A stretch of DNA of 64,000 nucleotides. It comes from a virus. Made by a program: the position numbers and the translations under genes. Positions 3,953 to 63,669 of the stretch are shown here, in pieces; within the stretch, counting starts at the first letter, position 1, and every line of letters begins with the position of its first letter. The notes beneath the pieces were generated by a model that ran no database searches, was not told the DNA's origin, and saw only the letters and a list, made by a program, of their open reading frames with translations. Location of the stretch: the IMG/VR virus record IMGVR_UViG_3300043427_001796. One strand, 5' to 3'.

Positions 3953-4038
3953 TATTATACCTATGTTTTCCTGATAAAACTATTTATTTATCTGGGGTGG
4001 ACACTTGGAGAACAGGCACAAATACCTATCTTTGGGGC

Positions 4039-4073
4039 TTGACAGACCAATTGGTGATGGGGTATACTAAATA
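4039..4073 (+). promoter_or_regulatory. psbA promoters (sigma70-like with overlapping late-type box)
   Basis: TTGACA-N18-TATACT overlapping CTAAATA. Confidence 0.65.
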
Positions 4074-10622: not shown

Positions 10623-10969
10623 GTGATTTTTTTACATCGGAAATGGTTCGCGGTGATCTACAAGAGATCACTGATCTCCAAATGTATTGTGTGCGGGCAT
10701 CTTCTATGCTGCCCGCACTTTCTCCAGAAAAACTACTAGAATATTATGATGTTCTAATGACATTGATTGACAAACAAAAAACATTTTATGCTAGACTTTC
10801 ATTAAGTGAAGATCCTGAAGCAAAAGAGATGGCAGATCTAATGAGAGACATGACGATTATGTTAGGAGCAAATCCAAACGAATCCATGTATGCTATGTTT
10901 GATGAACTCATTTCTCGCGTTCAGGAGATGAAGCAGCAGTTGCTTGACAAACTGGCACAGGATCCTTGA
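10619..10969 (+). CDS. DUF1825-like conserved protein
   Basis: FFTSEMV...KQKTFYARLSLSEDPEA. Confidence 0.65.
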   Translation: MSDFFTSEMVRGDLQEITDLQMYCVRASSMLPALSPEKLLEYYDVLMTLIDKQKTFYARLSLSEDPEAKEMADLMRDMTIMLGANPNESMYAMFDELISRVQEMKQQLLDKLAQDP

Positions 10970-11058
10970 CCCACCCCTGTGCCTGTGTTATGATGAATAA
11001 GTGAACGGGTCACACCAAACAAAATCCAAGTAACATCAAAGTAAATCCGAGGTATCAT

Positions 11059-28232: not shown

Positions 28233-28382
28233 ATGAAGCTTAAAGTAACCAAGAGAAACTTCACTGATTCTAATGGAAATAGTTGGGAATGGGAAGAGAC
28301 TGCTGAGACTCTTCAAGCACTCAACGTCCTCCATGGGGTCAGTCCGAAAACTGCCACACCCCCCTTGACAAGACCCACCTAA
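28233..28382 (+). CDS. small hypothetical protein (not in ORF track)
   Basis: MKLKVTKRNFTDSNGNSWEWEET, after a TTGACA..TAGGAT promoter. Confidence 0.45.
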   Translation: MKLKVTKRNFTDSNGNSWEWEETAETLQALNVLHGVSPKTATPPLTRPT

Positions 28383-28427
28383 CCTGTTATTATACATACA
28401 TACAAACGACGAGGTTAAACGGGAGCG

Positions 28428-28550
28428 ATGAAAGTTCCAAACTGGCAACACCACTCCAAGAAAGAACAGAAACGCTCCCTTAAACCTCAGATGTTGAGGG
28501 CAGCAAAACAGAGGCGTCAAGCACTTAAGAAAAAATTGCTATTTCAATGA
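28428..28550 (+). CDS. small basic hypothetical protein (not in ORF track)
   Basis: MKVPNWQHHSKKEQKRSLKPQ, after a dyad-motif promoter; GGAG RBS. Confidence 0.65.
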   Translation: MKVPNWQHHSKKEQKRSLKPQMLRAAKQRRQALKKKLLFQ

Positions 28551-29071
28551 ATCATAAATTATTGCCCAATAATGCCAATAATTTAATAATTTGGGAAGAA
28601 TTATTTGAATACATTCAAATGTATTGCGATAATCACAATTTACACAAATACTCCCAAATTGCAGGAAATGGTATTGATCCTATCGATTTTAATAATCTAA
28701 CATATAGATTAAGAATTTTGGGTGAGCATGAAAATATTCCTTTTATGCAAGAAAAATTCAATGCATTTTTTTCTATTTTTGATTTGCAAAATTTTGTAGC
28801 AGAGAAAGAAAAGCAAAATTTGTTTCCTCACTTTGCTATATATTTTTCATTTTTTCCACATGCAAAATCTCACGGAAATCATTGTGATGAAACCGATTTA
28901 TTTCATTGGCAACAAGTTGGTAAAACGGAGTGGACAATCACGGAATCTGGTGAAACATACAAATATGTTTTAAACCCCGGAGATTGTATTTTTCTACCAG
29001 AAGGAACATATCATGATGTTGTTCCTTTAACTCCAAGAATTGGATTATCATTTGGATTTTGGACAAAGTAA
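28547..29071 (+). CDS. JmjC/cupin-like oxygenase
   Basis: HCD..D...Q..GKTEW, LNPGDCIFLPEGTYH. Confidence 0.8.
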   Translation: MNHKLLPNNANNLIIWEELFEYIQMYCDNHNLHKYSQIAGNGIDPIDFNNLTYRLRILGEHENIPFMQEKFNAFFSIFDLQNFVAEKEKQNLFPHFAIYFSFFPHAKSHGNHCDETDLFHWQQVGKTEWTITESGETYKYVLNPGDCIFLPEGTYHDVVPLTPRIGLSFGFWTK

Positions 29072-48474: not shown

Positions 48475-48533
48475 GTGTGCAGTCTGCAAACTGGCACACA
48501 CCCCTTGACGTGGGCGGCAAATGACCCTATAGT
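48475..48533 (+). promoter_or_regulatory. dyad motif plus sigma70-like promoter
   Basis: GTGTGCAG-N8-CTGGCAC-N7-TTGACG-N17-TATAGT. Confidence 0.75.
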
Positions 48534-48555
48534 ATGAAGACAAACGTGATTCGTT

Positions 48556-49809
48556 ATGAACCTCCGTCCCCACCAGCAACGTGCTCTCGCCGCTATGGAG
48601 AAGCATAACACGGGTCGTATTATCATCCCTACGGGTGGTGGTAAGACTCTGATTGCTATTGAGGATCTCAAGCGTCGTCTGCTCGCTTCTGATGCCCCTA
48701 AGACTGCTGTAATCGTTGCTCCCCGCATTCTGCTTGCTAACCAACTCTGCGAAGAGTTCTGGTCTGCTCTGAATGGTGATGTTCATGCTGCTGTGGGTCA
48801 CGTTCACAGCGGTGAGACTGATCACTTTCACAGCACCAAACCTGCTGTAATTCGTGGTTTCAACGATGTCACTCTGAACGCTGGTCTTCACTGCCTGCTG
48901 TTCACCACCTATCAGTCTCTCAATCGTATTGTTGAGAGTGAGATTGATGTGGACTTCGTTTACTTTGACGAGGCACATAACAGCGTTCGTCGTGATTTCT
49001 TCCCGACTGTTGCTGACGTTGCTGGTAACGCCACCAACGCTTATTTCTTCACTGCTACGCCTAAGTATCACAACAATCCTTATGCCAATGGTATGAACAA
49101 TACCATGGTGTATGGTGAGGAACTGATCAGTGTGCCTGCTCCTGAACTGATTGAGAACGGCAGCATTCTTCCTCCTACCATCAAGTCGCACAAAGTAGAC
49201 TTTGCTCGCCAAAAGTCTCTTGCCGCAGCTGACAATGACAAGCAAGTTCTGCTTGACATTATTGACGAACTGGATGACGAACATGCCCAGAAGATTCTGG
49301 TTGCTGCTCCTAACACTAAAGTTCTGTGGCGTCTGCTGACCAAGACTGATGTGATCTCTCACTTCACTGCTCATGGTTACAACGTGCTTCATATCACTGC
49401 GAAGCATGGTGCCTATGTCAATGGTCAGAAAGTTGGTCGTGAGGTGTTTTTTAACACTATGACCAAGTGGGGCGAAGATCCTACTATCAAGATGATCATC
49501 TTCCACTACAGCATTCTTGCTGAGGGTATCAATTGCCCTGGTCTCACTCACACCATCCTGCTGCGTTGTCTGCCCGTCATTGAGATGGCACAGACCATTG
49601 GGCGTGTGATTCGTCTTGACCGCCGTGATGCTGCTGATATTGCCTCTGGCAAGATTGCTGCTGGTGCGTGTGAGTTCTATCGTAAGAAGACTGGTTTCGT
49701 GACTGTGCCTGTGTTCGCCAACTATGGTCAGCGCACTGAGAAGCGTCTTCAAGCGATCATTGAGAACATCTTCATCAAAGGTATCGCTGCTACCGAATAT
49801 TCCATCTGA
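48556..49809 (+). CDS. superfamily 2 helicase (ResIII/DEAH-like)
   Basis: LRPHQ, PTGGGKT, DEAH, TATP, EGIN, QTIGRVIR. Confidence 0.92.
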   Translation: MNLRPHQQRALAAMEKHNTGRIIIPTGGGKTLIAIEDLKRRLLASDAPKTAVIVAPRILLANQLCEEFWSALNGDVHAAVGHVHSGETDHFHSTKPAVIRGFNDVTLNAGLHCLLFTTYQSLNRIVESEIDVDFVYFDEAHNSVRRDFFPTVADVAGNATNAYFFTATPKYHNNPYANGMNNTMVYGEELISVPAPELIENGSILPPTIKSHKVDFARQKSLAAADNDKQVLLDIIDELDDEHAQKILVAAPNTKVLWRLLTKTDVISHFTAHGYNVLHITAKHGAYVNGQKVGREVFFNTMTKWGEDPTIKMIIFHYSILAEGINCPGLTHTILLRCLPVIEMAQTIGRVIRLDRRDAADIASGKIAAGACEFYRKKTGFVTVPVFANYGQRTEKRLQAIIENIFIKGIAATEYSI

Positions 49810-49819
49810 TTTTATCACC

Positions 49820-50014
49820 ATGACATACTACAAACCATATACACCTGAGTGGAATCGTCAGAGGTATCTGCGAGAAGCACTTTACACATACATTGAGGAT
49901 GGTGTTGATACTGATACTATTCTTCAAGAGATCTGTGATATTGTTTATGAACGCTCTGAGCAATCATATCAGGACTTTGCTAAGTGTAATGATCTAGCAG
50001 AACGATTTAAGTGA
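49820..50014 (+). CDS. hypothetical protein
   Basis: MTYYKPYTPEW.R.RYL. Confidence 0.6.
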   Translation: MTYYKPYTPEWNRQRYLREALYTYIEDGVDTDTILQEICDIVYERSEQSYQDFAKCNDLAERFK

Positions 50015-50047
50015 CCCGTGCTAAATAACCCTATATGGAGATTACAT

Positions 50048-50368
50048 ATGCTCTCTACGCAATATCGCCTTCGTCTGGAAGGTATTGGTAAGAAGATTGC
50101 GCTTCATGAGGAAGTCAGTCTGGAAGACATGATCTGGGCAGAGAAATTGGCAAAAGCAAATCGCTCTGCTGCTACCATACTCCGTCAGGCAAGAAGAAGG
50201 GCAGAGAATCCTGATATGGTGGAGGGTGATCTAGATGACTTTCTAAATCAGCTGGATATTGGTGGAACAGGACATGAATCCAAGGGAATTAGTGGATTCA
50301 ATAGTGTAGATGAGATTGCCGATTGGTTCAAGCAAGATAAACCCGAAGACTGGAGGCAGCGTGACTGA
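50048..50368 (+). CDS. conserved hypothetical protein
   Basis: MLSTQYRLRLE...DMIWAEKL; GGAG RBS. Confidence 0.7.
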   Translation: MLSTQYRLRLEGIGKKIALHEEVSLEDMIWAEKLAKANRSAATILRQARRRAENPDMVEGDLDDFLNQLDIGGTGHESKGISGFNSVDEIADWFKQDKPEDWRQRD

Positions 50369-50588
50369 ATTTTACTACTACGCATTACTCACCATATTTG
50401 CTGTTGTAGTGTATATGATGGCAGTTGATGAGAATGTTGGTAAGTGGATTCTGTTACAAGTTCAGTTGATCCGTATCAATATCATCAAACGCTGGTTTGT
50501 CTTGACATTAGGCATCCGTATACGCTATGATAACTACAAACTCAAACGTGCTCTAGAGAAGATACGAAAAGACTACAACATTAAGTAA
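50361..50588 (+). CDS. hypothetical membrane protein
   Basis: N-terminal TM segment; GTG start overlaps the upstream stop. Confidence 0.5.
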   Translation: MTEFYYYALLTIFAVVVYMMAVDENVGKWILLQVQLIRINIIKRWFVLTLGIRIRYDNYKLKRALEKIRKDYNIK

Positions 50589-50589
50589 T

Positions 50590-50805
50590 ATGAATGAAGA
50601 AGATTTTTGGATTGATGATTGCTTTCGTGTCCAGCAGAGTAGATGGGGAACATGGAACAGCTATCTTAAAGATGGCACAGCAGTGATTCTTTCTCTCACC
50701 AAGCATCATTGTGTTCATGCTACACGATGGTATCTGAAGGGCAAGCAAGAAGGATTTAACGAGCCGCTCAAAACTCATGATGGAATTGTAGGAGGTAAAC
50801 TCTAA
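50590..50805 (+). CDS. hypothetical protein
   Basis: Tightly packed ORF ending VGGKL. Confidence 0.6.
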   Translation: MNEEDFWIDDCFRVQQSRWGTWNSYLKDGTAVILSLTKHHCVHATRWYLKGKQEGFNEPLKTHDGIVGGKL

Positions 50806-51011
50806 TGGCGTTATCACAATCAGTTACCGATTCTTTAAAGGAAGCAGAGTATTCTCTGAGAAATGCTCTAGCATATGCTGCGAGAACAGAGAGACCGTCA
50901 ACAGCAAAAAACATTGCTGAGTTGATACATAATATTGATATGTTGATTCGCACTGATGAATTACTAGATCATATTGATGACATGAAGCAATCACTTAAAG
51001 ACAATAACTAA
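50805..51011 (+). CDS. hypothetical protein
   Basis: MALSQSV.DSL.EA...LRNALAYAAR.E. Confidence 0.65.
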   Translation: MALSQSVTDSLKEAEYSLRNALAYAARTERPSTAKNIAELIHNIDMLIRTDELLDHIDDMKQSLKDNN

Positions 51012-51012
51012 A

Positions 51013-51222
51013 ATGGACATCCATACACATATTGAAAAAGACAGACAAATTTTAGGAGATCCTATGGTATCTTCTCAGTCTCGCCGTCATGTTGAAGAAG
51101 AATTAGAGTCTCTGGAGCGTTATGCTGCTTCTCATCCAGACGATGAGCATGACCCAACTGCTCTAGAACTCTATTGTAACGATAATCCGGAAGCATTGGA
51201 ATGTAAAGTTTATGACGTGTGA
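51013..51222 (+). CDS. cp12: Calvin cycle inhibitor CP12
   Basis: VEEEL...LELYCNDNPEALECKVYD. Confidence 0.93.
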   Translation: MDIHTHIEKDRQILGDPMVSSQSRRHVEEELESLERYAASHPDDEHDPTALELYCNDNPEALECKVYDV

Positions 51223-51526
51223 AATTGATCCATCTTTGAACACTTACCCACATAATTACATGGAAAAGACTTATCAATCTGTTCGCAAAGATCGTCTTGT
51301 TGATGTCATTGGTGATTATCTCACTGATGAAGAATGTTCAGCAGAACAATTCTATAACGAATTAGTTGGTGAAATTGATACCTGGATTGAATATCATCGT
51401 AAATTCCTTGAGAAGGCTAAACTTGTCAAGAAAATGGTAAATGGTCATCGCCCACTGACTTTTGAAGATGACACCATCACCAACTATAGTCCACAATATC
51501 TTGCTGAAGATATTCTCGCGCTGTGA
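51212..51526 (+). CDS. hypothetical protein
   Basis: ORF between cp12 and pebS; start uncertain. Confidence 0.55.
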   Translation: MTCEIDPSLNTYPHNYMEKTYQSVRKDRLVDVIGDYLTDEECSAEQFYNELVGEIDTWIEYHRKFLEKAKLVKKMVNGHRPLTFEDDTITNYSPQYLAEDILAL

Positions 51527-52143
51527 AAAACCTCTGGAAAAACTATAAGCAAGCAATTCACGATACCTTCCCAGAACTCAAACAAGTAGAACTCTGGAAT
51601 CACTGGGAAGGTAAGATGACGATGGATGCTTATGTCTATCGTGGTGGTCATTTCATGCGAACTAGAGAAGCACTGGTCCGCAATGATACTACAGACATTT
51701 ACAATCATGTGCTGTATCCCTACACTGGCAAGAATACACCATGCTTCAGTGTAGACTTGATGGGATTCTTTGAGAACAAAGTGATCATCGTATTTGATTT
51801 CCAGCATCCTGTAGAGAACTATAAGTTCAGTGTTGGTGATAGACTACCCAAAGACACTGGTAAATATAGATTTTTTGAGATGGGAAATCATTTTAGTGAG
51901 CATATCTTTGTTCGCAAATGTACAATGTCAGAGGTTGATAACTATCTGGATGATTTTGTATCTTATTTGTCAGTATACAAGGAAATAGTTTATAACGATG
52001 CTCCTTTTAGTATAGATACATCAGCATACAAAGATTTTGACTCATATATGCGTAAACTTGACCCCATTTCTGGGTATATGAATAACATTTACGACAAAGA
52101 TAAGTCTAAATCATTTGTTGAAGAGTTCCTATTCATTTACTAG
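51523..52143 (+). CDS. pebS: phycoerythrobilin synthase (ferredoxin-dependent bilin reductase)
   Basis: DIYN.VLYP.TG...PCF.VDLM.F...KVIIVFDFQHP, YRFFEMGNHFS, LDP..GYM. Confidence 0.9.
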   Translation: MKNLWKNYKQAIHDTFPELKQVELWNHWEGKMTMDAYVYRGGHFMRTREALVRNDTTDIYNHVLYPYTGKNTPCFSVDLMGFFENKVIIVFDFQHPVENYKFSVGDRLPKDTGKYRFFEMGNHFSEHIFVRKCTMSEVDNYLDDFVSYLSVYKEIVYNDAPFSIDTSAYKDFDSYMRKLDPISGYMNNIYDKDKSKSFVEEFLFIY

Positions 52144-52144
52144 T

Positions 52145-52306
52145 ATGACTAAACCAAACTGGGATCAACTTAAAAGTGTACTATCCACAGAAGAATGTGG
52201 AATGATGAAAGAATTATACAAACGACTAGAAGACTTAGAAGACAAGATTGACATATCTTGCGATGATATTAAAAAGTATGGTGGCAGTTCGCAAACTGGC
52301 ACATAA
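52145..52306 (+). CDS. hypothetical protein
   Basis: Short ORF ending in the dyad motif. Confidence 0.45.
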   Translation: MTKPNWDQLKSVLSTEECGMMKELYKRLEDLEDKIDISCDDIKKYGGSSQTGT

Positions 52307-52359
52307 AACCTCCAATTCACCAAATAATGATGTATTATTGATTTATTGATGCAATTTAC

Positions 52360-52656
52360 ATGAGTAAAGTTACACTACCTAAGGCACCAGATGGATACAA
52401 ATTTGTTGTTCAGCGGGATTTTGATGCTAAGCATCATGCTATCTGGTTACATCATTCTTTTCCGTATAGTTACACAACTGAAGAAGTAAAGACTATCTGG
52501 GGATTTCTTCGCAAGAAGGATATGAAGATTGTATCCCCAGTCAATGCTAAGAAACCCGGTAAACTTGCTGAATTTGTAACACCATATTCTGCCATGCCGC
52601 CGCCGCAGGGTGCCAGTTGTTTTAGTGTCACACACCTCGTCGTCAGCACCACCTGA
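52360..52656 (+). CDS. hypothetical early protein
   Basis: Follows a dyad-motif promoter; AIWL.H...V.TIWGF. Confidence 0.65.
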   Translation: MSKVTLPKAPDGYKFVVQRDFDAKHHAIWLHHSFPYSYTTEEVKTIWGFLRKKDMKIVSPVNAKKPGKLAEFVTPYSAMPPPQGASCFSVTHLVVSTT

Positions 52657-52689
52657 GACCCTATAATAAAGAGATCAAGAGGACAGACC

Positions 52690-53124
52690 ATGACCAGCGC
52701 CACCTTCGATCAATTTGTTGCTCAGCAAGACGCTAAGAATACCATTCAATTGAATGTTACTAAGTGGACTTGGGAACTATGTGAGGCACTGCGTCAGAAC
52801 TTTATTGATTACTCTATTCGGTCTCACGCACTTCGCACATCTGATGTGGAGTATCATGATGCCTGTATTGCTGAATTGAGGCAAGGTAAGTGTAACTATG
52901 ACTTCACTTTTGAGTCGGGTCGTAAGTATCACAAGATCATCATGACTGCGGATGGTTCCCGTTCTGTTCACGCATTTGTGGACAAGAAGACTGGTGAAGT
53001 CTATAAATCTGCCTCCTGGCAGTCTCCTGCTAAGGGTGTTCGTTACGATCTCCGCGTCATTAGTGAGCGTGAATGGTTGTTTGAGAATGCTGACTGGGCA
53101 GGTTCTTATCTGTATGCCCGTTGA
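52690..53124 (+). CDS. conserved hypothetical early protein
   Basis: GRKYHKI...SVHAFVDKKTGEVYK.ASW..PAKGVRY; GAGG RBS. Confidence 0.8.
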   Translation: MTSATFDQFVAQQDAKNTIQLNVTKWTWELCEALRQNFIDYSIRSHALRTSDVEYHDACIAELRQGKCNYDFTFESGRKYHKIIMTADGSRSVHAFVDKKTGEVYKSASWQSPAKGVRYDLRVISEREWLFENADWAGSYLYAR

Positions 53125-53168
53125 CAAGCGGAGATTTCTCTGCTAAATTATAGTAATCCTTCATTCCG

Positions 53169-55298
53169 GTGTTCAAAATGCTTCACGAAGACGATCTCTA
53201 CATTGTTATTGGTCCTCTCGGTATTGCTGTAAGTCTTGATCACACTGGTGGTGTCTATCAGATGCCTATGTGTCAAGATGGCACTCCCGATTGGGATAGT
53301 GAATGGGATATTGAGTGGGATGAGCTAAATCCTACTGAATATGCTCTGTATAAGACCGCATACGATTGTCTGGTTCGTATGTATGAACTCTCTGTAAAAC
53401 CTAACGTGGTATTTGTCAAATGAAAGCACAAAAACTCTCTCAATTTGTAGTGTCTGATCTCCGTCAATGGATGGAGGTTAATTACGACAACATGAGTGTT
53501 CGCCCCAAGGATACTACTTCTACGCGAGAGAAGAAAGTCTTCTGGATCTATCATCACAAGTTTCCCCTGGAGTTTGTGAACGCGATTCAAGAGAAACTTG
53601 ACGGATACAAGTTAGTATCCTATGATCACCTTAACAACAAACTGGAGTGTACACCCATTGAGTAAAGCACAGAAATTATCAGATCAAGTTGAGACTATCA
53701 TGAAGAATCGTGAGCGTAGGTTCATGTATCTGATTCGTAATGGTCGTAATGATGATGCCATTGCTGTAGGCGATGAGTTCATGGAATGGTTGAATCCTGA
53801 TGTAGAAGATCCCATTGTGTGGTATGATGAGGATGAACTGGTAGATCTGTACGAACAACTCAAGAAAGAACAGAAGCGTCGTCGTAGAGGTAAAAGTCAA
53901 TGAAACTCATTAAATTTAATCACCGCTATGATTATGGTCATGACTGGTTTGTTCAAATTTTGAACACTGGTAGACATGTTCCTAGTCCATTCAAAGATTG
54001 GTCACTGATTCAACTATCAGTAAGTTGGAATGATTATGCTTCATGGCCCTATATTCAGATCAAATCTGGAACTGGAACTCTCTTCAGTGTAATGTTTTGG
54101 TGCTACAAATTTGGCATTGACATTGGATTCTTTGAACGCACTTGGAACTTTGATTATTTGGAGAATGTAAATGATGAAAGCGAAGACTAGAGTAATTCTT
54201 GAGGAAGCACTTGAAGAAGGTATCCGCATTGGATATCGTAGATCATTCAAGCATACTGATACTCCAGAAGAACATTGGGTGATAGAAAACATCCAGAATG
54301 AGATTATGAATTGTATTGATTTGCGTTTTGATTTTGAGGAGAACTATCAATGAGCGGCGGGCACTTTGGAAATTATGACTACTACAAAGTAGATCAGTTT
54401 GCTGATGAGTTGGAAGTAGAGATTGAGAATAATGGTAAAGCAAAAGATGATAGTGGATACTATGGTGAGAAATGGTATCCTAGCCATGATCCTGATGTGA
54501 TTGATGTGTTGCGAGAGCAAATCCCCAAACTGCGTAAGATGGCAACGATTATGAGAGACATTGATTATCTCTATAGTGGTGACATTGGCGATGATGGTTT
54601 CCTGCTGCGTATGAAAGAAACTGAGGTGAAGTATGACTTTTGACATGCCTTGGGTTAATCTAACTCAAAAAGAAATCAATGAACTTCGTAATAAGAAGTT
54701 TGAACTTACTGAATATGGTAAAGACAAATTGAGAGAACTTATGAACAATCAAGAACCATATCCTGATGCTATGTTTGAAGAAGCAATGTCTGATCAAGTA
54801 ATGAAAACTGCTCTAGAAGGTATTCATCAGTATGATGGAGCACTGAAAGAACTTGCTGCTTCCGAGAAAGAAGAGTTGTATGAACAACTTGAAGCACTAA
54901 AGAAAGAGAACTTTCAAAAGGTTGCTGAGTGTTGTATAGAAGAATACAATCAAAAGTATGGTGATCATAAAGAAGATCCATATTGGGTCTATATGATTTC
55001 TGAATACTTTGCTACTGGTGAAGGACAAACTATTTGTCTAATGATCACACAAGGACTACCATATGGCAATGACTTTGGACCTGATGACAATTACAATCCA
55101 GTTACCACAAAACAATATCGTGCTGTGAGGGAGTTTCATGAAAAGTTTGGGACATGGCATTTACATGGTCTTCGCTTTCTATCTAAAGAAGCATTCTATA
55201 CTGAGTGTGCTTATTTCATCCCACCTGTGATGATGAAACTCTCCAATGCCAAGTGCTATAAAAACTTCTATAGTCAAGTTCATTATAACTTTGGATAA
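53169..55298 (+). other. run of short co-oriented hypothetical genes (53169, 53420, ~53640, 53900, 54171, 54350, 54633)
   Basis: Overlapping ATGA/TAATG junctions after a TTGACA promoter at 53122. Confidence 0.6.
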
Positions 55299-55304
55299 TT
55301 AAAA

Positions 55305-55868
55305 ATGAAAGACAATCTACCTGACACCACAATCAAACCTATTGATCTTTCACCTGGACGCCACGAGGGACGAGGAGTGCAAGTAGAAGTTTACGAACTT
55401 TCAGATTGTTATAAAAAAATATGGAAATTTTTGCCCGAAATTCCTGATTTTCAAATAGAGCAAGGATTATCACATCATGTTGAAATTATGAAAATAGTTA
55501 ATCCTGATTATATAAAAAGATATGGTTGGGATAAGGATGAAAAAACTGTCTGGATGGAACTTAAAAAAATATCAGGAGATACTGCTGATAAGTTCCCCCA
55601 CACTCCCGAATTTATAAAAAAAGTATATCAATTTTGTTTAGATAATATTAAACAGACTTTTCCTTATGCTCATCAAGATTGGCACTTGGATAATATTATA
55701 GTTGATGGTGATAACATGTCTATGGTAGATTGGGATAATGTAGATTTATATAGCTATCATGAATCAGTAAATAGACTACATGATAATCTTCGCAATTCTG
55801 AACGTGGATTCGGGGAAAAATTTGAACAATACTTACGATCAGAATTACCCGATTCTGAACAATCATGA
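55305..55868 (+). CDS. protein-kinase-like (APH/RIO fold) protein
   Basis: HQDWHLDNII catalytic loop, VDWD Mg-binding motif. Confidence 0.7.
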   Translation: MKDNLPDTTIKPIDLSPGRHEGRGVQVEVYELSDCYKKIWKFLPEIPDFQIEQGLSHHVEIMKIVNPDYIKRYGWDKDEKTVWMELKKISGDTADKFPHTPEFIKKVYQFCLDNIKQTFPYAHQDWHLDNIIVDGDNMSMVDWDNVDLYSYHESVNRLHDNLRNSERGFGEKFEQYLRSELPDSEQS

Positions 55869-57529
55869 CTGACAAAGAACTCTATAATCCAGACGAGTTT
55901 CTTCTGGATGATATTAAATCGTATCACTATGAGGTGATGGATGAAGGGCATCATGTTTGGATGGCATTCTATTTTGAGGATGGTCGCACAGGACACTTGA
56001 ATATCTTCACCAATGATGGTAAGATCAATACGAGATACGAGGAATGGAATGAGATTTGAAACTCAATCAAAGTGGCAAGACTTCCTAGATGGATTTCGTA
56101 ATGTCTTGTGTATTGTAGATTGTTATAATGATGGTGATGAATGGGGTTATGGTGAGTTCTGGGAATCCTTAAGTATTGGATGGTTTCAAGAATACATCTA
56201 TCCATATGATGATCCATACAATTTAACTATCAGTCCAGAACGCAAGTTGAGATTGTCGCAAGAACTACCAAAGATTCTACTCTCAGTAGAGGATTACAAT
56301 GAACTTGTGAGACGAATCAATGAACCACCAGATCCTGCTGTAGCAGAAAGAATAAAAGAACTGATAAATCGTAAAGCACCATGGGACTAAACAAATGAAA
56401 GAACTTCCGGACAAACGTAACCTAGACCTTATGTGGACAGTAGCAACCAGTGGAGCTTTAGAAACTGGCACACGTCCCCACCATGGATTTGCTGAGCTGC
56501 TGTATGATTATCTCACAGACGGAACACTCAACAAATACAACATCAAACTCGATGATGAGAAAAGTCCTAGTCAAACCTAAGAGTAGCAAGGCAAAGAATC
56601 GTCTTGCTAATATAATGGAAAACAATCCTGTTTGTATTGTAGAACAGGATACTGGCGGTGAGTTGTTCCTTGCATCCGAGAATCGTAAATACTTCTTTTG
56701 GGTCAGCACTCGGACTGGAACTAATCGTTTTGGTGATAAATCTGATGCACACTGGGAGATAGTATGATTGATTGTAAAGAAACACAAGATGGTTTTGAAA
56801 TTACATGGGATCCTGATGATCCTGTGGAGTCTGTGTTCAATACCTGGACCGAACAAGACTTTATAAATGTCATTATGGCAGAGTGTAACCGAGTAATTGA
56901 GGAACATGAGAAAAACAAAGAGCAATCTGAAAACTGAAGATCTATTTCCACACTCAAACTTTGGGTATCGCCTAGAGCATAAGGATAGGAATGACAATAA
57001 GATCTGTTGGTTCTGTCATCCTACTCATGTTGGTAAGTATCTTGAAAAATACAAGATTGATGTGAGTCAGTGTAAGATTGATGTGCATCCAGATTATCCA
57101 CCACTAGAGGAAAAACAAGAGAAAGTTAAGAAACCACGCACTACAAAGAAAGACAAGGTATTTGCTGATCTTGACACCTATGTTAAGATCACTGATGTAG
57201 AAGAGAAACCAAAGCGGACACGCAAGAAGACTGCTGAGGCACCGCCAGCAGCGCCCAGGAGCGGCAGGAAGACCCCTGCTAAGACTCCTAAGCAGTCTGC
57301 TGCTGCTCCCGCTGCCAAGACCCCTACAGCGTCCCCTAGGAGCAAGAAAAAATGATTGTATCAACTGATGTGGTTCTGAATAACAAAGAGATTGCATTTA
57401 TTATTGATTTGATGTGGGCAACTGATGAGCGTATTGCTAAACAGATTGCTAACAGGCATGGCGTGAGCGATCAAGAGCTAGAGTGCCACTTGTCAAGGTG
57501 TCTGGGTGCTGCCCTATCGGGCGACTGAC
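55865..57529 (+). other. run of short hypothetical genes (55865, ~56050, 56395, 56552, 56764, ~56906, ~57352)
   Basis: Tightly packed co-oriented ORFs; the ~56906-57355 ORF has a Lys/Ala/Pro-rich histone-like tail. Confidence 0.55.
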
Positions 57530-57560
57530 CTGCTACAATTAATTCATAATCAAACAAACC

Positions 57561-57995
57561 ATGATTCAACTCAATCAAGTTTATAACTTTGAGTGCCCAG
57601 CAGCATTTGGAACTCTCTCGCAAGAGCGTGTGAATAAACTATTCACTGATGGTCGTCGTGCATCTGGTTTTCTTGAATTGCAACTTGAAGAATGGTTTCC
57701 TGAATTGATGTTTGTTGATGGCAAGGGATACGATCATGTAGATCCCAATGGTGTCAAGTATGATGCCAAATGTTTCACTAAAGGTGGTGCCAAATTCTGT
57801 GCATCCAAATATCTTGGTGTTGGTCGGTCTGTTGATATTGATGAGCATCGTGAACATTCTATGAAGATGATCTACATCTTCTGTGATGTGGTAGAATTCC
57901 CTAAGGTTCGCGTTGTATTCAAACGTGGATCTGATCTGACTCAATATACTAAGGGTTCTATTCCATTTGGTGATCGTAATGCTCTATTTGCTTGA
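57561..57995 (+). CDS. putative PD-(D/E)xK restriction-type endonuclease
   Basis: E..L...F...GYDHVD....YDAKCF; overlaps the MTase gene. Confidence 0.55.
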   Translation: MIQLNQVYNFECPAAFGTLSQERVNKLFTDGRRASGFLELQLEEWFPELMFVDGKGYDHVDPNGVKYDAKCFTKGGAKFCASKYLGVGRSVDIDEHREHSMKMIYIFCDVVEFPKVRVVFKRGSDLTQYTKGSIPFGDRNALFA

Positions 57996-58758
57996 TTGTT
58001 TGACTGGTATGAAGCAATTGGAGAACGAGAGTGTTGATGCTATCATCACCTCTCCTCCATATAATCTTAATATCAAATATGGTAAATATTCTGATGACAA
58101 ACCACGCCAAGAGTATATTGATTGGTTGGTAGAGATATTTCGTGAAGGTAAGCGTGTGCTCAAGGATAATGGGCATTTGTTTGTGAACATGGGATATTCT
58201 AATGTTGATCCATGGGTGGGCATGGAGGTCGGTCTTGCACTCAGAAATGATTGGATTTTGCAAAATCACATTAACTGGGTGAAATCTATTCATGTAAATG
58301 ACAAGACAAGCGGACATTTCAAACCAATTAATAGTAAAAGATTTCTATGTCCTACATGGGAGCATCTCTTTCACTTCACAAAAGATGGTAATGTAAATGT
58401 AGATCGTCTTGCAGTTGGTGTTAAGTATGAATACTACGAAGCAAACATTCGTGGTAAGAATACTATTGACACCAAACCAAATTTGAGAGACAAGGGCAAT
58501 TGCTGGTTTATACCATACGAAACTATTAATAGTAAAGAACTCAGAGGCAAGCATCCAGCTACATTTCCAGTTAAATTGGTTGCGGATTGTATTAAACTGA
58601 CTGGTATTGAGAATGGTATAGTTCTTGATCCATTCATGGGCACAGGGACTACAGCAGTTGCCGCAATTAATCTTGATTGGGATTATATTGGTTACGATAT
58701 TGATGCAGACTATATTGATTATGCCAGGCAGCGGATCGAGGCGTGTGCCACCTCATGA
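57979..58758 (+). CDS. DNA amino-methyltransferase, beta class (m4C/m6A)
   Basis: TSPPYN, HPATFP, VLDPFMGTGTT. Confidence 0.93.
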   Translation: MLYLLDCLTGMKQLENESVDAIITSPPYNLNIKYGKYSDDKPRQEYIDWLVEIFREGKRVLKDNGHLFVNMGYSNVDPWVGMEVGLALRNDWILQNHINWVKSIHVNDKTSGHFKPINSKRFLCPTWEHLFHFTKDGNVNVDRLAVGVKYEYYEANIRGKNTIDTKPNLRDKGNCWFIPYETINSKELRGKHPATFPVKLVADCIKLTGIENGIVLDPFMGTGTTAVAAINLDWDYIGYDIDADYIDYARQRIEACATS

Positions 58759-58828
58759 GCTGTCCACCATTCTCCCCACTGCCCACCAGATGCCCTATAC
58801 TGATTACATCAGCGAAAGACACGCACTC

Positions 58829-59101
58829 ATGACTGACTACCTGCTCATCACTTTCGGTCCTGCTGAGGATGTAGAGCGTAACGGATGGTATAACTGCAAA
58901 GAGCGTTTCAACTCCAAACGTGCTGCTATTCGTAAAGGTCTTGACTCTCTCTGTATTGCTGGTTGCTTCGGTTATGTTGTGATTGAAGATGGTGAGGACT
59001 GGTGGCAGATCATTGATGAGTCTGGCACTGAGAATGCTACTATCACTGCCAAGCGTTTCACTTTCCAAGTCTCTCCTGCTCCTAAACTCCAACTGGTCTG
59101 A
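58829..59101 (+). CDS. hypothetical early protein
   Basis: ATG at 58829 after a dyad-motif promoter. Confidence 0.65.
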   Translation: MTDYLLITFGPAEDVERNGWYNCKERFNSKRAAIRKGLDSLCIAGCFGYVVIEDGEDWWQIIDESGTENATITAKRFTFQVSPAPKLQLV

Positions 59102-59304
59102 TGACACTCTCATTCAAATCTAAAGAAGAGCATATTGCTGCTCTGTATGATGCTCTCATGCTGATTGCTGAGACATACTATGCTACTGATCTGCTAGATG
59201 GTGCGGATTTCGGACTCACAACTCCGTATCACTTTGCTAAGTCTGCGCGAGCAGCATTAGATTCTATTGCTAAACAACAAGATGGACAACAAGAAACTGC
59301 TTAA
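59101..59304 (+). CDS. hypothetical protein
   Basis: TGATG coupling. Confidence 0.6.
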   Translation: MTLSFKSKEEHIAALYDALMLIAETYYATDLLDGADFGLTTPYHFAKSARAALDSIAKQQDGQQETA

Positions 59305-59494
59305 GAAACTGGAGAATGCTTACACCTCATGTTTTGATTGTGGTGCTGAGTATGGTGTGTATTCTGTAGGATGCTCATCTGTGTGGAATGGTAAATGTGA
59401 TGTCTGTGGTGAGACCAAACCTATCACAGAATCGCGTGACTTTGGATATTTTATTACTGGTATTCGTAAACTCAAACTGGAGATGAACAAATGA
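59282..59494 (+). CDS. small zinc-ribbon protein
   Basis: CFDC...CDVC. Confidence 0.55.
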   Translation: MDNKKLLKKLENAYTSCFDCGAEYGVYSVGCSSVWNGKCDVCGETKPITESRDFGYFITGIRKLKLEMNK

Positions 59495-59898
59495 AACAAC
59501 AAAACGGATTTATTGACCCTGCCATTGCTCTCATTGCTGTTGGTGTTGTGGTAGTTGGTGGTCTCATCTTTATTGGTGGTCCACAATATAATGTGTGGCA
59601 ACAATCGCTTGCTGGTAAGGCAGAACTTCAGAAAGCAGAGTATACTCGTCAGGTAGCAGTGTTGGAAGCACAAGCAAAGAAAGATAGTGCTCAACAACTA
59701 GCTGATGCTGAGATCATTCGTGCTACTGGTGTTGCTAAAGCAAACCAGATCATTGGTGATAGTCTGAAGGACAATCGTGAGTATCTTCAGTATCTGTATA
59801 TCACTGGACTTGAAGAGGGTGCTAACAAAGGTAACGTGACCATCTACGTTCCTACCGAGGGTGGTATGCCTGTGCCCACACTTCAGATGAATAAGTAA
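59491..59898 (+). CDS. membrane-anchored coiled-coil protein (SPFH/band-7 C-terminal-like)
   Basis: TM segment, AEIIRATGVAKANQII..SL, YLQYL, IYVPTEGGMPV. Confidence 0.65.
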   Translation: MKQQNGFIDPAIALIAVGVVVVGGLIFIGGPQYNVWQQSLAGKAELQKAEYTRQVAVLEAQAKKDSAQQLADAEIIRATGVAKANQIIGDSLKDNREYLQYLYITGLEEGANKGNVTIYVPTEGGMPVPTLQMNK

Positions 59899-60008
59899 CA
59901 CTAATTGATTATGGGGTTGCCAGATCCCCTCAAAACTGGTATGATAACCATATCAGAGAAAGTGATTGGCACTTGATCTGATGTTCATAACACATTGAAT
60001 TAACTATC

Positions 60009-61016
60009 ATGAAACAAAAACTTAAAGTCAAGGACTTCACCTACAAATTTGTAGCAACTCCTGGTATCTCCGCTGCCCTTGGTGGTAGATCTGAGGAACG
60101 GGGTGGTGGTGGATCTGGTCGGGCATCTATCACACTTGCTGATATCTATACTGGACAAACTGAAACCAATCCTGGTCGTGTTCATGGCGCATTGCGTAAG
60201 AATGTGTCTAAGATTGAGAACTCTTTGCGTGATCGTGGTGTTGATTACTCTCTTCCCGTTCCTGTAGTTGAACGATTGAAAGATCCCATTGTTGCTAATG
60301 GCAGGAAGTATTACTATCGTTTGATTGATGGTATGAATCGCTTCAAGGCATTTCTCAACATCGGATACACTGAATGGGTATTTGATGTAGTCAACATCGG
60401 TGTGAATGGTGTGAGTCGTGAGTATGCCCTAGAGACATTTGCTCAGATTCGTAATGATCATGCTCCCAGTGAAGCACATAGCGTGGAAGATGTTCATGCT
60501 TCTGCGACTCGTTTGATTGGATCTGGTGATCTAGAAGATAACGAAGATTCTATCCGTGAATGGGTGTATTTGGTATGCCAGAACATGCCCACACAGACTA
60601 AGAATCAGATTGTGGCAGAGATCATCAAGAACAACGATATTCCTACTGCTACGATTAGCTGGACTGATAAGAGTGCTACTGCTTGGGCACAGCAACCTGA
60701 TACGAATTTGCCTGTAGAACCAGATTACTTTTTCCCTGGTCATTACTTCCAAGATCGTATCTACTCTCTCATGAAGCAATATTCTGATACTAAGAAAGTC
60801 CAGAATGTTTATCTTCATGTTGATGGCAAAGATGAGAAGTCTATCGTGAAGCAACGAGAGGATACTATGGACAAATTTGATAACTTTGAACAGATCGTTC
60901 GTGATGTTGCTGGTTATCTTTTTGTGAATGGTAGTCTTCCCTTTAACTTCATTGGTTTTGCTCCGCAGATCAATGATAAAGAGGATCCCACTACTTGCGT
61001 TCCTATTGCCTCATGA
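60009..61016 (+). CDS. ParB/Srx-like N-terminal domain protein
   Basis: I..SL...G...P.PVV...YRLIDGMNRFKA; own promoter at about 59917-59945. Confidence 0.6.
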   Translation: MKQKLKVKDFTYKFVATPGISAALGGRSEERGGGGSGRASITLADIYTGQTETNPGRVHGALRKNVSKIENSLRDRGVDYSLPVPVVERLKDPIVANGRKYYYRLIDGMNRFKAFLNIGYTEWVFDVVNIGVNGVSREYALETFAQIRNDHAPSEAHSVEDVHASATRLIGSGDLEDNEDSIREWVYLVCQNMPTQTKNQIVAEIIKNNDIPTATISWTDKSATAWAQQPDTNLPVEPDYFFPGHYFQDRIYSLMKQYSDTKKVQNVYLHVDGKDEKSIVKQREDTMDKFDNFEQIVRDVAGYLFVNGSLPFNFIGFAPQINDKEDPTTCVPIAS

Positions 61017-61101
61017 TGTGCCACTAGGCAAGCTGTCCACCTCACCCCCCGGTGGGGTGGATTCTCCTGTATATTACATAGGTAATCAAGGAAACGCCCC
61101 G

Positions 61102-63445
61102 ATGGTCTTCCACTACACTGCTGGTCACGGCAAGCAAGGCACCCTAACTCTGGTTCCTTCCATGTCTATGCTCAAGTCTGAATATATTTGTGTTGCTCAG
61201 GTTGGTGACAACATGATGGTTGTTTCTAATCCTCGCCCTCTTGATGAAGCACTCAACTGGGCACAAAACTACTGCGGTTCTTTCTGCCTGATCTGAAAAT
61301 GGTATTCCTCATCTCTGAAGTTAACGGTTGCACTTACACTCTGGATGCTAACAATCAGCGTGTGCTGATGTATGCTCCACTGCTGTCTGATGGTTCATAC
61401 GAAACTGCTGGTTCTGCTTATGATTATGTGGAGTGGGATTGTCTAGATGAAGATGTCTTGATGGAGGCAGATCGTTGTCACAAACTCTTGCTTGCTGAAG
61501 TATGAACTACCTGTGTTTGATTGATGGTGTTGTTGAGTTTGGCAGCACCAGTTTACATGAGTTTGCTCGTTACTTTGTCATGTATGATGAAGAAGTAAGA
61601 CAGGCAGAAGAGAATAATACATTAGAGATTCTCAATCTCACTGATGAAGAGCTTGCCGCTATGTTTCCTGTAGAGGATGAAGAAGAATGAAACATGTGAA
61701 GTTTGTATCAGTCACCCGTGTGATTGATCCTAAGACACGCATACACTATCTGGATGCTATTGATGTAGATGGCATTCACTGGACAGCAGAGATGGATCAT
61801 CTACAAGAGCCATGGTTGTGCTATAATGAGATGTGGCGTCAAGATCCCCAACAACCAAAGAATTATGACTGACACTAAAATTCTACTTCAACGAATTTCT
61901 ACGGCAATCTCTACTGCTCCACAAGGAGAAACTTATGAGGATTGTCGTAATAATGAGGCAAAGGCAGCACTTTTGGAGATTACTGATTGGTTAGAACAAG
62001 TTAATGATGGTGATTTTGATTTTATCCTTTGGAGATTGAAAGAGGAATTAAAATGACTGAATTTCAACCAAAACCACAAACACCAGATGAAGTAGATGCT
62101 GGTCTCCGTGATGCTATGAAACAAGCAAAACTAGAGGGTGTATTCAAAATACCAGATGATCCCTATAGTAAAATCAATTTTCCAAAGCATTCCAAATGGA
62201 CATGCTATATGTTTGGCAATCGTCCTGGTGCTAATTATGGTATTGCTTATACACCACAAGAAGGAAGAGTTCCTAATCGTTTTGTGAGGTGGATGATGTA
62301 TCTGTGTTTTGATTGTATGTGGGTGAAGAAATGAAACTGAATGCTGGTGATTTGATGGTCATTGTGGACACTCTCAATCATAGTTTGAAAGTTATGAACT
62401 ATGAAGGATTCACAGACGCAACGAGAGAGCGTGTGAGAGATCATGTGCTGAATATGATGAGTCAAATTGAGGTTGAAGTTGTGTGTGGTAATGTAGAGCC
62501 TGTTGTGATTAGTGGTGATGTTGGAGGTTGACCATGACTAAGCAACCTAAAAAAATTCAAGTCAAAGAAACTCAACGATACTGGGGGGACTTTGATGGTA
62601 CTCTTAAGAGTATTATTTCTTCACTTCAAGCAGAATTAGATGCTGGTTGGGAAGGTATAGAGATTGATTATGAACGAGGTTATGGTGATTGTCACGACCA
62701 CGAAGTTCCTTATCTCTACAAGCATCGTGAAGAAACCGACAAAGAGTATGAGAAACGGATGAAGCAACTGGAGAAAGAAAAAGCAGAGAAAGCAAAGGCA
62801 AAGGAACAAAAACTTAAGCAACTCAAGAAAGACCTTGCTTCCTTGACTGATGAAGAAAAAGAACTTCTGGGGTTAAAATGACTAAACTCTATGATAAGAT
62901 ATGGAAGATTGTGGGCACCAGAGTAGGATATGGTATTGAGTGTGATGTGGTTACAGATCAACTCATTGATGCTGTAGATGAATGGTTGCCTCAGGAACAT
63001 GATACAAACTCCTATAAATGGAATCAATGCGTAAACACAATGAGAGGTAACTTACGATGAACATGACAATGGATCAACTCTTTGAGTATGTGACCAAGAC
63101 GATTGCTTCACCACATACTTCTATCACTGAACATGATAAACGTCGTGCGGCGCTCATCTTTACATACTTTGATGAGTATATGATTGATGTTGATGCTGCT
63201 GCTGGACGTTGTGATGTAGGTGATGAACTTGACTTTAGTTCTTATGCTACACAAGTGATTGATGAATTAGAAGGTAAGACCAATGAATCGTAATCAGTAT
63301 CTAGCACAAGAACTACGCTATCACGCACAGAATAATGAAATGATTGATCAATGGTATACTGAATTTGGTGCTCTATGTAATGAGATAGCAGATGTCCTAG
63401 ATCAATTACCAGTATCAGTGGACAGCTCAGATACTGGCACATGAC
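61102..63445 (+). other. run of short hypothetical early genes (61102, 61299, 61502, 61687, ~61865, ~62053, ~62331, ~62534, 62878, 63057, 63283)
   Basis: Co-oriented overlapping ORFs after the dyad-motif promoter at 61018. Confidence 0.6.
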
Positions 63446-63501
63446 CTGTTGCGAATCACCGCACACCATGCCATAATACATTCATACAAACGAACGAGAC
63501 C

Positions 63502-63669
63502 ATGAGCGACCAAGAGTTTCACATCTTTCAGACAATGGAAGATGGCACGACTGAATTGCTTTATGTCACCTATAGTGAAGAGGGAGCACAAGATGAGGTA
63601 GATCGTATTAACTCTCTTCTTGCCTCTGCTGGTATTCCTTCCTCTGTCTCCTGTGCTTATTACAACTGA
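63502..63669 (+). CDS. hypothetical early protein (not in ORF track)
   Basis: MSDQEFHIFQTMEDG..., after a dyad-motif promoter. Confidence 0.55.
   Translation: MSDQEFHIFQTMEDGTTELLYVTYSEEGAQDEVDRINSLLASAGIPSSVSCAYYN

What the first reader, a model, noticed from the sequence alone, without database searches (positions are those of the whole stretch)
48475..63477. Dispersed dyad element at near-fixed distance from -10 boxes: a candidate phage activator regulon
Seen: an imperfect palindrome GTGGACAG-N8-CTGGCAC, or its reverse complement GTGCCA(C/G)-N8-CTGTCCAC, occurs at 3997, 10936, 28335, 48475, 52280, 52610, 56450, 57483, 58745, 61018 and 63418. The left arm is degenerate at 10936 and 56450. 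In 10 of 11 copies the start of the right arm lies 36-38 nt before a -10 hexamer: TATGAT 10989, TATTAT 28388, TATAGT 48528, TATTAT 52333, TATAAT 52662, TATGAT 56503, TACAAT 57534, TATACT 58796, TATATT 61070, CATAAT 63472. Where a -35 box exists (10966, 28365, 48505) it is exactly 7 nt after the motif, and several copies have no recognisable -35 at all. The psbA copy is the exception (50 nt). Inference: a dimeric protein binds next to, or substitutes for, the -35 element, a functional analogue of T4 MotA, which is not evident in this window. Similar upstream motifs may already be reported for other cyanomyophages; no cognate factor is identified here.
Basis: partly seen in the sequence, partly recalled or inferred. 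Interest (0 to 1): 0.8.

Follow-up and report, generated by a model that had tools for sequence, protein, structure and literature searches.

The report
Cyanophage early-type promoters copying host site
Eleven promoters in this T4-like cyanophage carry the same two-armed DNA site about 30 bases before the -10 box; this promoter type is shared by T4-like cyanophages, and it copies the site that cyanobacteria place before their Yfr2 small-RNA genes, so the host regulator PlmA is a testable candidate for switching these phage genes on.

Summary
All 11 dyads and all 10 listed -10 hexamers are at the stated coordinates. The gap from dyad end to -10 is 28-31 nt in 10 of 11 copies (P about 1e-9); psbA is the exception.

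The element is not private to this phage. More than 100 uncultured viral contigs carry the exact arms with the same geometry, on one or both sides. Nine reference T4-like cyanophages each gave 3-11 matches, and Syn9 has it at orthologous genes (gp32, helicase). T4, KVP40, a Methylophilales phage, and T7-like, sipho- and S-TIM5-type cyanophages gave none.

I believe this is the "novel early-gene regulatory element" of Doron et al. 2016. That rests on my memory, because the paper was not readable here.

Following a lead from earlier notes of this scan, which found this cassette before on other DNA, I tested the host link myself. A matrix built only from host Yfr2 promoter sites ranks the phage sites 1, 2, 3, 4, 6, 7 and 11 of 128,000 positions. 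The shared half-site lies about 50 nt before the -10 in both host and phage. The host element (CGRE1) binds the GntR-type regulator PMM1637/PlmA (Lambrecht 2018).

The most likely reading is activator-dependent early promoters that use host PlmA. It is not a MotA analogue. Binding and timing are untested.

The parts
3997..4068 (+). Dyad (3997-4019) upstream of the psbA promoter. The -35 TTGACA is at 4039-4044 and the -10 TATACT at 4063-4068. Spacing is atypical (43-nt gap). psbA is 4132-5211.
   Evidence: (rank 4 with the host-derived matrix)
10936..10994 (+). Dyad with a degenerate left arm (10936-10958), -35 TTGACC at 10966 and -10 TATGAT at 10989. It drives the gp32 ssDNA-binding protein gene (11059-11946).
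   Evidence: Syn9 has a dyad at the orthologous place before its gp32.
28335..28393 (+). Dyad (28335-28357), -35 TTGACA at 28365 and -10 TATTAT at 28388. The downstream gene is uncertain: a short ORF, then 28547-29071.
48475..48533 (+). Dyad (48475-48497), -35 TTGACG at 48505 and -10 TATAGT at 48528. It drives a DNA helicase gene (48556-49809).
   Evidence: Syn9 has a dyad before its helicase gp75.
52280..52338 (+). Dyad (52280-52302), no -35, -10 TATTAT at 52333. It drives a 98-aa gene (52360-52656, PHROG 573).
52610..52667 (+). Dyad in the opposite orientation (52610-52632), no -35, -10 TATAAT at 52662. It drives a DUF7717 gene (52690-53124).
56449..56508 (+). Dyad with a weak left arm (56449-56471), no -35, -10 TATGAT at 56503. 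It is followed by a small gene (about 56552-56767, PHROG 1653; start uncertain).
57483..57539 (+). Dyad in the opposite orientation (57483-57505), no -35, -10 TACAAT at 57534. It drives a 144-aa gene (57561-57995).
58745..58801 (+). Dyad in the opposite orientation (58745-58767), no -35, -10 TATACT at 58796. It drives a small gene (58829-59101).
   Evidence: (rank 2)
61018..61075 (+). Dyad in the opposite orientation (61018-61040), a C-rich spacer with a short inverted repeat, and -10 TATATT at 61070. It drives a small gene (61102-61296).
   Evidence: (rank 1)
63418..63477 (+). Perfect dyad (63418-63440), no -35, -10 CATAAT at 63472. It drives a small gene starting at 63502.
   Evidence: (rank 3)

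Best explanation
Shown: these are 11 copies of the promoter cassette that T4-like cyanophages place before small early-type genes and some replication genes. Each cassette has four parts:
- a 23-bp imperfect dyad, consensus GTGGACAGTT-N4-AACTGGCAC, centred about 54 nt before the predicted start;
- a C-rich spacer of 28-31 nt, which only sometimes holds a -35 box;
- a sigma-70-type -10 box;
- a short leader.

Also shown: the dyad copies, in sequence and in position, the CGRE1 element of the host's own yfr2 small-RNA promoters.

Inferred: a dimer of the host GntR-type regulator PlmA (PMM1637 in Prochlorococcus MED4), which is present before infection, binds the dyad. It helps host RNA polymerase start at promoters that lack a -35 box. 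The phage could then express these genes at once, without a factor of its own. PlmA binding, the activating direction and early timing are all inferred.
For: Real and promoter-linked:
- The dyad is enriched, and the gap to the -10 is fixed at 28-31 nt in 10 of 11 copies.
- Each copy is followed by a gene start about 20-50 nt after the -10, and psbA's 64 nt after it.

Widespread with the same geometry:
- 100 unique low-GC viral contig instances carry the exact arms.
- 70 of them have TAnnnT 36-39 nt from the inner CTG on the GTGGACAG side, 47 on the other side, 25 on both and only 8 on neither.
- Positions not required by the search pattern are also conserved: T after CAG, and A after CAC.

Lineage and host range:
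- Model R1 finds 3-11 matches in each of 9 T4-like cyanophages and 1 in P-HM2.
- It finds none in T4, KVP40, the Methylophilales phage Melnitz, P-SSP7, Syn5, P-SS2 or S-TIM5.

Syn9:
- All 9 sites have a -10 27-32 nt after the dyad and a C-rich spacer.
- Two of them precede gp32 and the helicase, as in this window.

Host link:
- Rfam Cyano-1 (Yfr2-type) genes in picocyanobacterial genomes carry related dyads upstream.
- A matrix from six of those host sites ranks the phage sites 1, 2, 3, 4, 6, 7 and 11 of 127,956 positions.
- The 7-mer GnCAGTT occurs in 21 of 41 host Yfr2 promoters, against 0.036 expected per 80 nt. In 17 of them it lies 47-51 nt before the conserved -10; in the phage the distance is 50 nt.

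Published work: Lambrecht et al. 2018 (PMC6191309) showed by pull-down and gel shift that PMM1637 binds yfr2 promoters through this conserved palindrome. They report that it starts 55-57 nt before the start site and that PMM1637 homologues occur in all cyanobacteria.
Against: - No binding or expression data exist for this phage.
- Model R1 found no strong copy of the phage-type dyad in five candidate host-type genomes. Host sites are weaker, with a degenerate promoter-proximal arm, so the likeness is at half-site level.
- I chose and oriented the six host sites knowing the phage motif.
- The real host of this phage is unknown.
- Some host promoters also carry the half-sites in an abutted, everted arrangement, so I am not sure which arrangement the published CGRE1 logo shows.
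- T7-like and other cyanophages of the same hosts lack the dyad. A factor specific to the phage lineage therefore remains possible.
- Whether PlmA activates or represses is not settled in the paper.
Confidence: 0.5

Rival explanations
1. The dyad is a real promoter-upstream binding site, but the protein is not PlmA. It could be another host protein, or a phage protein delivered with the DNA or made very early. The likeness to yfr2 promoters would then reflect a shared but different factor, or convergence.
For: - The dyad is confined to T4-like cyanophages among the phages tested. It is absent from T7-like, sipho- and S-TIM5-type cyanophages of the same hosts.
- Phage sites are full dyads, while host sites are mostly one good half-site.
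- No strong phage-type dyad was found in five host-type genomes.
Against: - The half-site and its distance to the -10 match the host element for which PMM1637 binding was shown.
- No DNA-binding domain was found among the ten window ORFs scanned against Pfam.
- The related phage of a non-cyanobacterial host lacks the dyad.
Confidence: 0.27
2. The dyad is an operator for repression rather than activation. A host or early phage protein would bind it to shut these promoters off, for example at the early-to-middle switch, and the promoters would fire unaided.
For: - Three copies have good -35 boxes and could work without help.
- GntR-family proteins are often repressors (general knowledge).
Against: - Most copies lack any -35 box.
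- The site lies upstream of the polymerase footprint, near -54. That is a typical activator position and a poor one for simple occlusion.
- In the host, promoters with an intact motif are the more strongly expressed ones (PMC6191309).
Confidence: 0.12
3. One reading: a phage-encoded, MotA-like activator made after infection drives a middle-class regulon through this dyad.
For: The promoters look activator-dependent and lack a -35, as T4 middle promoters do.
Against: - The site position (about -54) and its sequence differ from the MotA box at -30.
- Cyanophages are reported to lack motA/asiA and T4-type middle promoters (PMC5780444).
- The genes served are mostly small early-type ORFs.
- From memory, Doron 2016 assigns the novel element to early genes and host-like promoters to middle genes.
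- The 60009 candidate has no recognisable DNA-binding family.
Confidence: 0.08
4. The repeats are mainly recombination or gene-shuffling modules, like the promoter-early stem-loop (PeSL) cassettes of T4-type phages, or they act as RNA. They would have no dedicated DNA-binding factor.
For: - The cassettes flank small accessory ORFs in a variable region.
- An earlier scan note raised PeSL.
Against: - The distance to the -10 is fixed, and both orientations are used at the same distance.
- The dyad lies upstream of the predicted start, so it is not transcribed from its own promoter.
- As RNA it would fold only into two 3-bp stems (reading of the sequence).
- The host counterpart is a protein-binding site.
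Confidence: 0.03

Closest known systems
'Novel regulatory element' of early genes in T4-like cyanophages (Doron et al. 2016, ISME J 10:1437; Syn9 and P-TIM40)
   Same: It occurs in T4-like cyanophages, upstream of small early-type genes. It is conserved and abundant across isolates and metagenomes. Syn9 itself carries nine copies with the same dyad-spacer-(-10) layout.
   Different: I could not read the paper. The identity of this dyad with the published logo, and the early timing, rest on my memory of the abstract. As far as I know the paper names no binding factor.
CGRE1 element of yfr2 promoters, bound by the GntR-family regulator PMM1637/PlmA (Lambrecht et al. 2018, PMC6191309)
   Same: It has the same half-site (GnCAGTT, within GTGnCAGTT) at the same distance from the -10 (about 50 nt). 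Its length is similar (21-22 against 23 bp). The spacer is C-rich and there is no -35 box.
   Different: Host sites usually have one strong arm and one weak arm, and some have an extra everted copy. Phage sites are fuller dyads and occur in both orientations, sometimes serving divergent promoters. Binding of PlmA to phage DNA has not been tested. No paper in the searchable library links the two.
T4 MotA/AsiA-dependent middle promoters
   Same: Promoters with a good -10 and no -35, which depend on an extra DNA-bound factor.
   Different: The MotA box is a 9-bp asymmetric site centred at -30, recognised by a phage protein together with AsiA-remodelled sigma-70. Here the site is a 23-bp dyad near -54, no motA/asiA is known in this phage group, and the probable factor is host-encoded.
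NtcA-activated (class II) cyanobacterial promoters, also reported in cyanomyophages (Sullivan et al. 2010, PMC3037559)
   Same: A host dimeric regulator site replaces the -35 box at a fixed distance from a -10. Cyanophages use it to tap host regulation.
   Different: The NtcA box is GTA-N8-TAC, centred at -41.5. This dyad has other arms and lies about 12 nt further upstream.
PeSL (promoter-early stem-loop) cassettes of T4-type phages (lead from an earlier scan note)
   Same: A repeated early-promoter unit that punctuates clusters of small accessory genes.
   Different: PeSL is defined by a sigma-70 early promoter plus a stem-loop, without an upstream dyad. I did not test for stem-loops systematically.

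Membership tests
Early-gene regulatory element of T4-like cyanophages (Doron 2016) | Conserved motif at a fixed distance upstream of a -10 box, shared among T4-like cyanophages and metagenomic contigs | tested here: met
   over 100 viral contigs and 9 reference phages carry it; 92 of 100 instances have a -10 at the fixed offset.
Early-gene regulatory element of T4-like cyanophages (Doron 2016) | Present in Syn9 at the promoters described in the paper | tested here: inconclusive
   Nine Syn9 sites have the same layout. The paper is not held, so they cannot be matched to its promoter list or logo.
Early-gene regulatory element of T4-like cyanophages (Doron 2016) | Drives transcripts of the early temporal class | not testable with these tools
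CGRE1 / PlmA-dependent promoters (Lambrecht 2018) | Sequence of the conserved palindromic element | tested here: met
   The host-only matrix ranks the phage sites 1, 2, 3, 4, 6, 7 and 11 of 127,956 positions. The half-site GnCAGTT occurs in 21 of 41 host promoters.
CGRE1 / PlmA-dependent promoters (Lambrecht 2018) | Position: the element starts about 55-57 nt before the start site, upstream of a -10, with no -35 | tested here: met
   The half-site lies 47-51 nt before the -10 in hosts and 50 nt in the phage. The phage dyad starts about 65 nt before the predicted start because its outer GTG extends further.
CGRE1 / PlmA-dependent promoters (Lambrecht 2018) | Bound by the GntR-type regulator PMM1637/PlmA | not testable with these tools
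   This needs a gel shift or pull-down. Only the host element has been tested (PMC6191309).
T4 MotA-dependent middle promoters | MotA box centred at -30 in place of the -35, with motA and asiA genes | tested here: not met
   The dyad ends 28-31 nt before the -10, so it is centred near -54. Cyanophages are reported to lack motA/asiA (PMC5780444). I did not scan the whole window for motA.
NtcA-activated promoters | GTA-N8-TAC centred about 22 nt before the -10 | tested here: not met
   The arms are GTGGACAG and CTGGCAC, and the site lies about 12 nt further upstream.
Sigma-54 promoters (TGGCAC-N5-TTGCW) | A -12 element TTGC 5 nt after TGGCAC | tested here: not met
   The sequences after the TGGCAC arm are C-rich and show no TTGC at that offset. 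Cyanobacteria lack sigma-54 (general knowledge).

The most novel reading that the evidence does not exclude
T4-like cyanophages start their infection programme by hijacking PlmA, the one GntR-type regulator common to all cyanobacteria. They do so by placing improved copies of the host yfr2 promoter site in front of their early genes. This would explain how broad-host-range phages run the same early programme in different hosts. It would also tie early phage transcription to the host's nitrogen, light and energy signalling, in which PlmA takes part. No paper in the searchable library makes this link, although earlier notes of this scan reached it on other phage DNA.
Probability: 0.45. Interest if true: 0.75.

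Novelty: new member of a known kind. Interest (0 to 1): 0.45.

Why it matters
How T4-like cyanophages start transcription without MotA/AsiA is only partly understood. As far as I know, the early-gene element has been described but its factor has not.

This window adds a clean set of 11 cassettes from a divergent phage whose psbA is closest to Cyanobium and freshwater or brackish Synechococcus. With the host comparison, it points to a specific, purifiable candidate protein, PlmA. That turns an open question into a gel-shift and reporter experiment.

If PlmA is the factor, then host range, the light dependence of infection and the host's nutrient state could all act on the very first step of phage gene expression.

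Tried and rejected
- Reading Doron et al. 2016 by DOI and by PMC id: not held. Papers that cite it do not give the motif.
- Whole genome of the window: none is held.
- Mismatch search for the phage pattern in five picocyanobacterial genomes: counts sat near the reversed-pattern control and were uninformative in GC-rich DNA. Four of those hits were followed up and gave no Rfam match and no phage-like geometry.
- Model R1 on the same five genomes: nothing below E = 1.
- Guessing the Rfam accession for Yfr2: RF01116 is Yfr1, RF01117 is unrelated and RF01115 is absent. RF01701 (Cyano-1) gave the Yfr2-type genes.
- Upstream regions of the host plmA gene in four genomes showed an ordinary -35/-10 promoter and no clear dyad.
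- Sigma-54, NtcA and RNA-hairpin readings were rejected on sequence and position.
- The ParB-like label for the 60009 protein has no Pfam support.

Full report
**Observation**

The pattern GTGGACAG-N8-CTGGCAC with up to three mismatches occurs 7 times in the 64-kb window, against 0.70 expected; none of 100 shuffles reached 7.

On a matrix made from the 11 sites they score 22-33 bits. The next window position scores 14 bits, and Markov shuffles reach at most 17.5 bits.

All ten -10 hexamers are at the coordinates given. The gap between dyad end and hexamer is 28-31 nt. A TAnnnT at that offset is found at 6.4% of random positions, which gives P of about 9e-10 for at least 9 of 11.

Seven copies have the CTGGCAC arm next to the promoter and four have the GTGGACAG arm there. 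Ten copies are followed by a plus-strand gene start about 20-50 nt after the -10, and psbA begins 64 nt after it. The genes served are psbA, gp32 (ssDNA-binding protein), a helicase and eight small or unknown ORFs.

**It is a shared cassette, not a private regulon**

Nearly all have 35-50% G+C. Positions the search did not require are conserved too, giving the consensus TA-GTGGACAGTT-N4-AACTGGCACA.

Among 100 unique low-GC instances the -10 offsets were as follows:

| TAnnnT 36-39 nt from the inner CTG | Instances |
|---|---|
| On the GTGGACAG side (total) | 70 |
| On the CTGGCAC side (total) | 47 |
| On both sides | 25 |
| On neither side | 8 |

One dyad can therefore serve one promoter or two divergent promoters, which fits a two-fold symmetric binding protein.

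A sequence-only model of the dyad (R1) gave these results on reference phages:

| Phage group | Matches at E <= 1 |
|---|---|
| Syn9, S-H9-1, S-CAM1, S-PRM1, S-H35, S-PM2, P-SSM2, P-SSM4, S-CRM01 | 3-11 each |
| P-HM2 | 1 |
| T4, KVP40, Methylophilales phage Melnitz | 0 |
| P-SSP7, Syn5 (T7-like cyanophages) | 0 |
| P-SS2 (siphovirus), S-TIM5 | 0 |

In Syn9 all nine best sites are followed, 27-32 nt later, by a -10 box, with the same C-rich spacer and short leader. Two of them precede gp32 and the helicase gp75, the same genes as in this window.

From memory, Doron et al. 2016 reported that a novel regulatory element controls early genes of Syn9 and P-TIM40 and is abundant among T4-like cyanophages. 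I could not open the paper, and no accessible citing paper gives the motif. The identification is therefore probable but unverified.

**The host counterpart**

Earlier notes of this scan, made on other phage DNA, pointed to the host regulator PlmA and the yfr2 promoters. I treated this as a lead and tested it.

Lambrecht et al. 2018 (PMC6191309) describe CGRE1. [quoted passage not shown] I located Yfr2-type genes with Rfam Cyano-1 in five picocyanobacterial genomes chosen by psbA similarity to the phage, and in 56 further genomes of the same family. Their 5' sequence matches the published Yfr2 primers.

Their upstream regions hold dyads of the phage type at a fixed place. One arm is GTGnCAGTT or GGACAGTT. 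A weaker second arm follows, then a C-rich spacer and a conserved -10.

Three tests support the match:
- A matrix built only from six host sites ranks the phage window's sites 1, 2, 3, 4, 6, 7 and 11 of 127,956 positions, and all eleven fall within the top 92.
- The 7-mer GnCAGTT or its complement is present in 21 of 41 host promoters, against 0.036 expected per 80 nt. In 17 of them it lies at -61 to -55 from the RNA model start. That is 47-51 nt before the -10, against 50 nt in the phage.
- With the phage matrix, the best hit in the 140 nt upstream falls at the same place (-60 to -63) in 10 of 12 host promoters.

Caveats:
- I picked and oriented the six host sites knowing the phage motif.
- Host sites are weaker than phage sites, and model R1 finds no strong phage-type copy in the five genomes.
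- Some host promoters also carry the half-sites abutted in an everted arrangement, so I cannot say which arrangement the published logo depicts.
- The true host of this phage is unknown.

**Mechanism**

Shown: the cassette has a fixed geometry, works in both orientations, is conserved across T4-like cyanophages, and resembles a host site that binds a known regulator.

Inferred:
- A PlmA dimer, already present in the uninfected cell, binds the dyad near -54 and helps host polymerase start at promoters that mostly lack a -35 box.
- This would let the phage transcribe these genes immediately.
- The inner palindrome CAGTT-N4-AACTG places two recognition sites about one helical turn apart, as expected for a winged-helix dimer. 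The outer GTG and CAC could be wing contacts.
- The three copies that also have a -35 box precede gp32, the helicase and one unassigned gene. They may be active both with and without the factor.

I put this explanation at about 0.5. The rivals and their weights are:

| Rival | Weight |
|---|---|
| A different factor binds the dyad | 0.27 |
| The dyad is an operator for repression | 0.12 |
| A MotA-like, phage-encoded middle activator | 0.08 |
| Recombination module or RNA role only | 0.03 |

The MotA reading fits poorly for three reasons. The site is at -54 rather than -30. Cyanophages are reported to lack motA/asiA. The proposed 60009 protein has no recognisable DNA-binding family.

**Novelty and verdict**

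The element is a further example of a known kind, so the finding as stated is not new. The link to CGRE1/PlmA appears in no paper of the searchable library, but earlier notes of this scan reached it on other phage DNA.

The link is worth a direct experiment.

Noticed in passing
window 28394-28412, 48534-48552, 57540-57560, 63478-63501, 10995-11030: About 12-16 nt after the -10, several leaders contain CAAAC(G/A)A just before the start codon. The same word follows the -10 in many viral-contig copies and in Syn9. It may be a conserved 5'-leader or translation signal.
   Followed up: no
window spacers after each dyad, e.g. 58768-58795, 61041-61069: The spacer between the dyad and the -10 is C-rich: a CCCC run soon after the dyad, and CC(C/T) just before the -10. 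In 61041-61069 it forms a short inverted repeat. Host yfr2 promoters and Syn9 show the same composition.
   Followed up: partly
window 2786-3952 (-) and 4132-5211 (+): The psbA dyad lies between divergent genes. The minus-strand 388-aa ORF starts only 45 nt from the dyad, and I saw no -10 at the usual offset on that side.
   Followed up: partly
window 51523-52143; 57967-58758; 55305-55868: The region carries a ferredoxin-dependent bilin reductase homologue, an N6/N4 DNA methylase and a weak phosphotransferase-family match among the small genes.
   Followed up: no
window 32450-42229: A single 3259-aa ORF on the plus strand. It was not examined.
   Followed up: no
L233 (G001:C1:1830016-1830032), L231, L232, L261, L250: Many host Yfr2 promoters carry a second arrangement in which the half-sites abut as a perfect everted palindrome (ACTGGCAC-A-GTGCCAGT). 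In five genomes it is found essentially only before Yfr2-type genes.
   Followed up: partly
record MZ577097 (Methylophilales phage Melnitz): This phage is classified with the cyanophage family but infects a non-cyanobacterial host. It has no match to the dyad model. This is a single case, but it fits a host-linked element.
   Followed up: partly
L208 and L209 (two Cyanobium genomes): Two Cyanobium genomes share a conserved intergenic word, G(T/A)GACAGTTGT-CGA-CGTCAC. It has no Rfam match and no phage-like promoter geometry. Its role is unexplained.
   Followed up: partly
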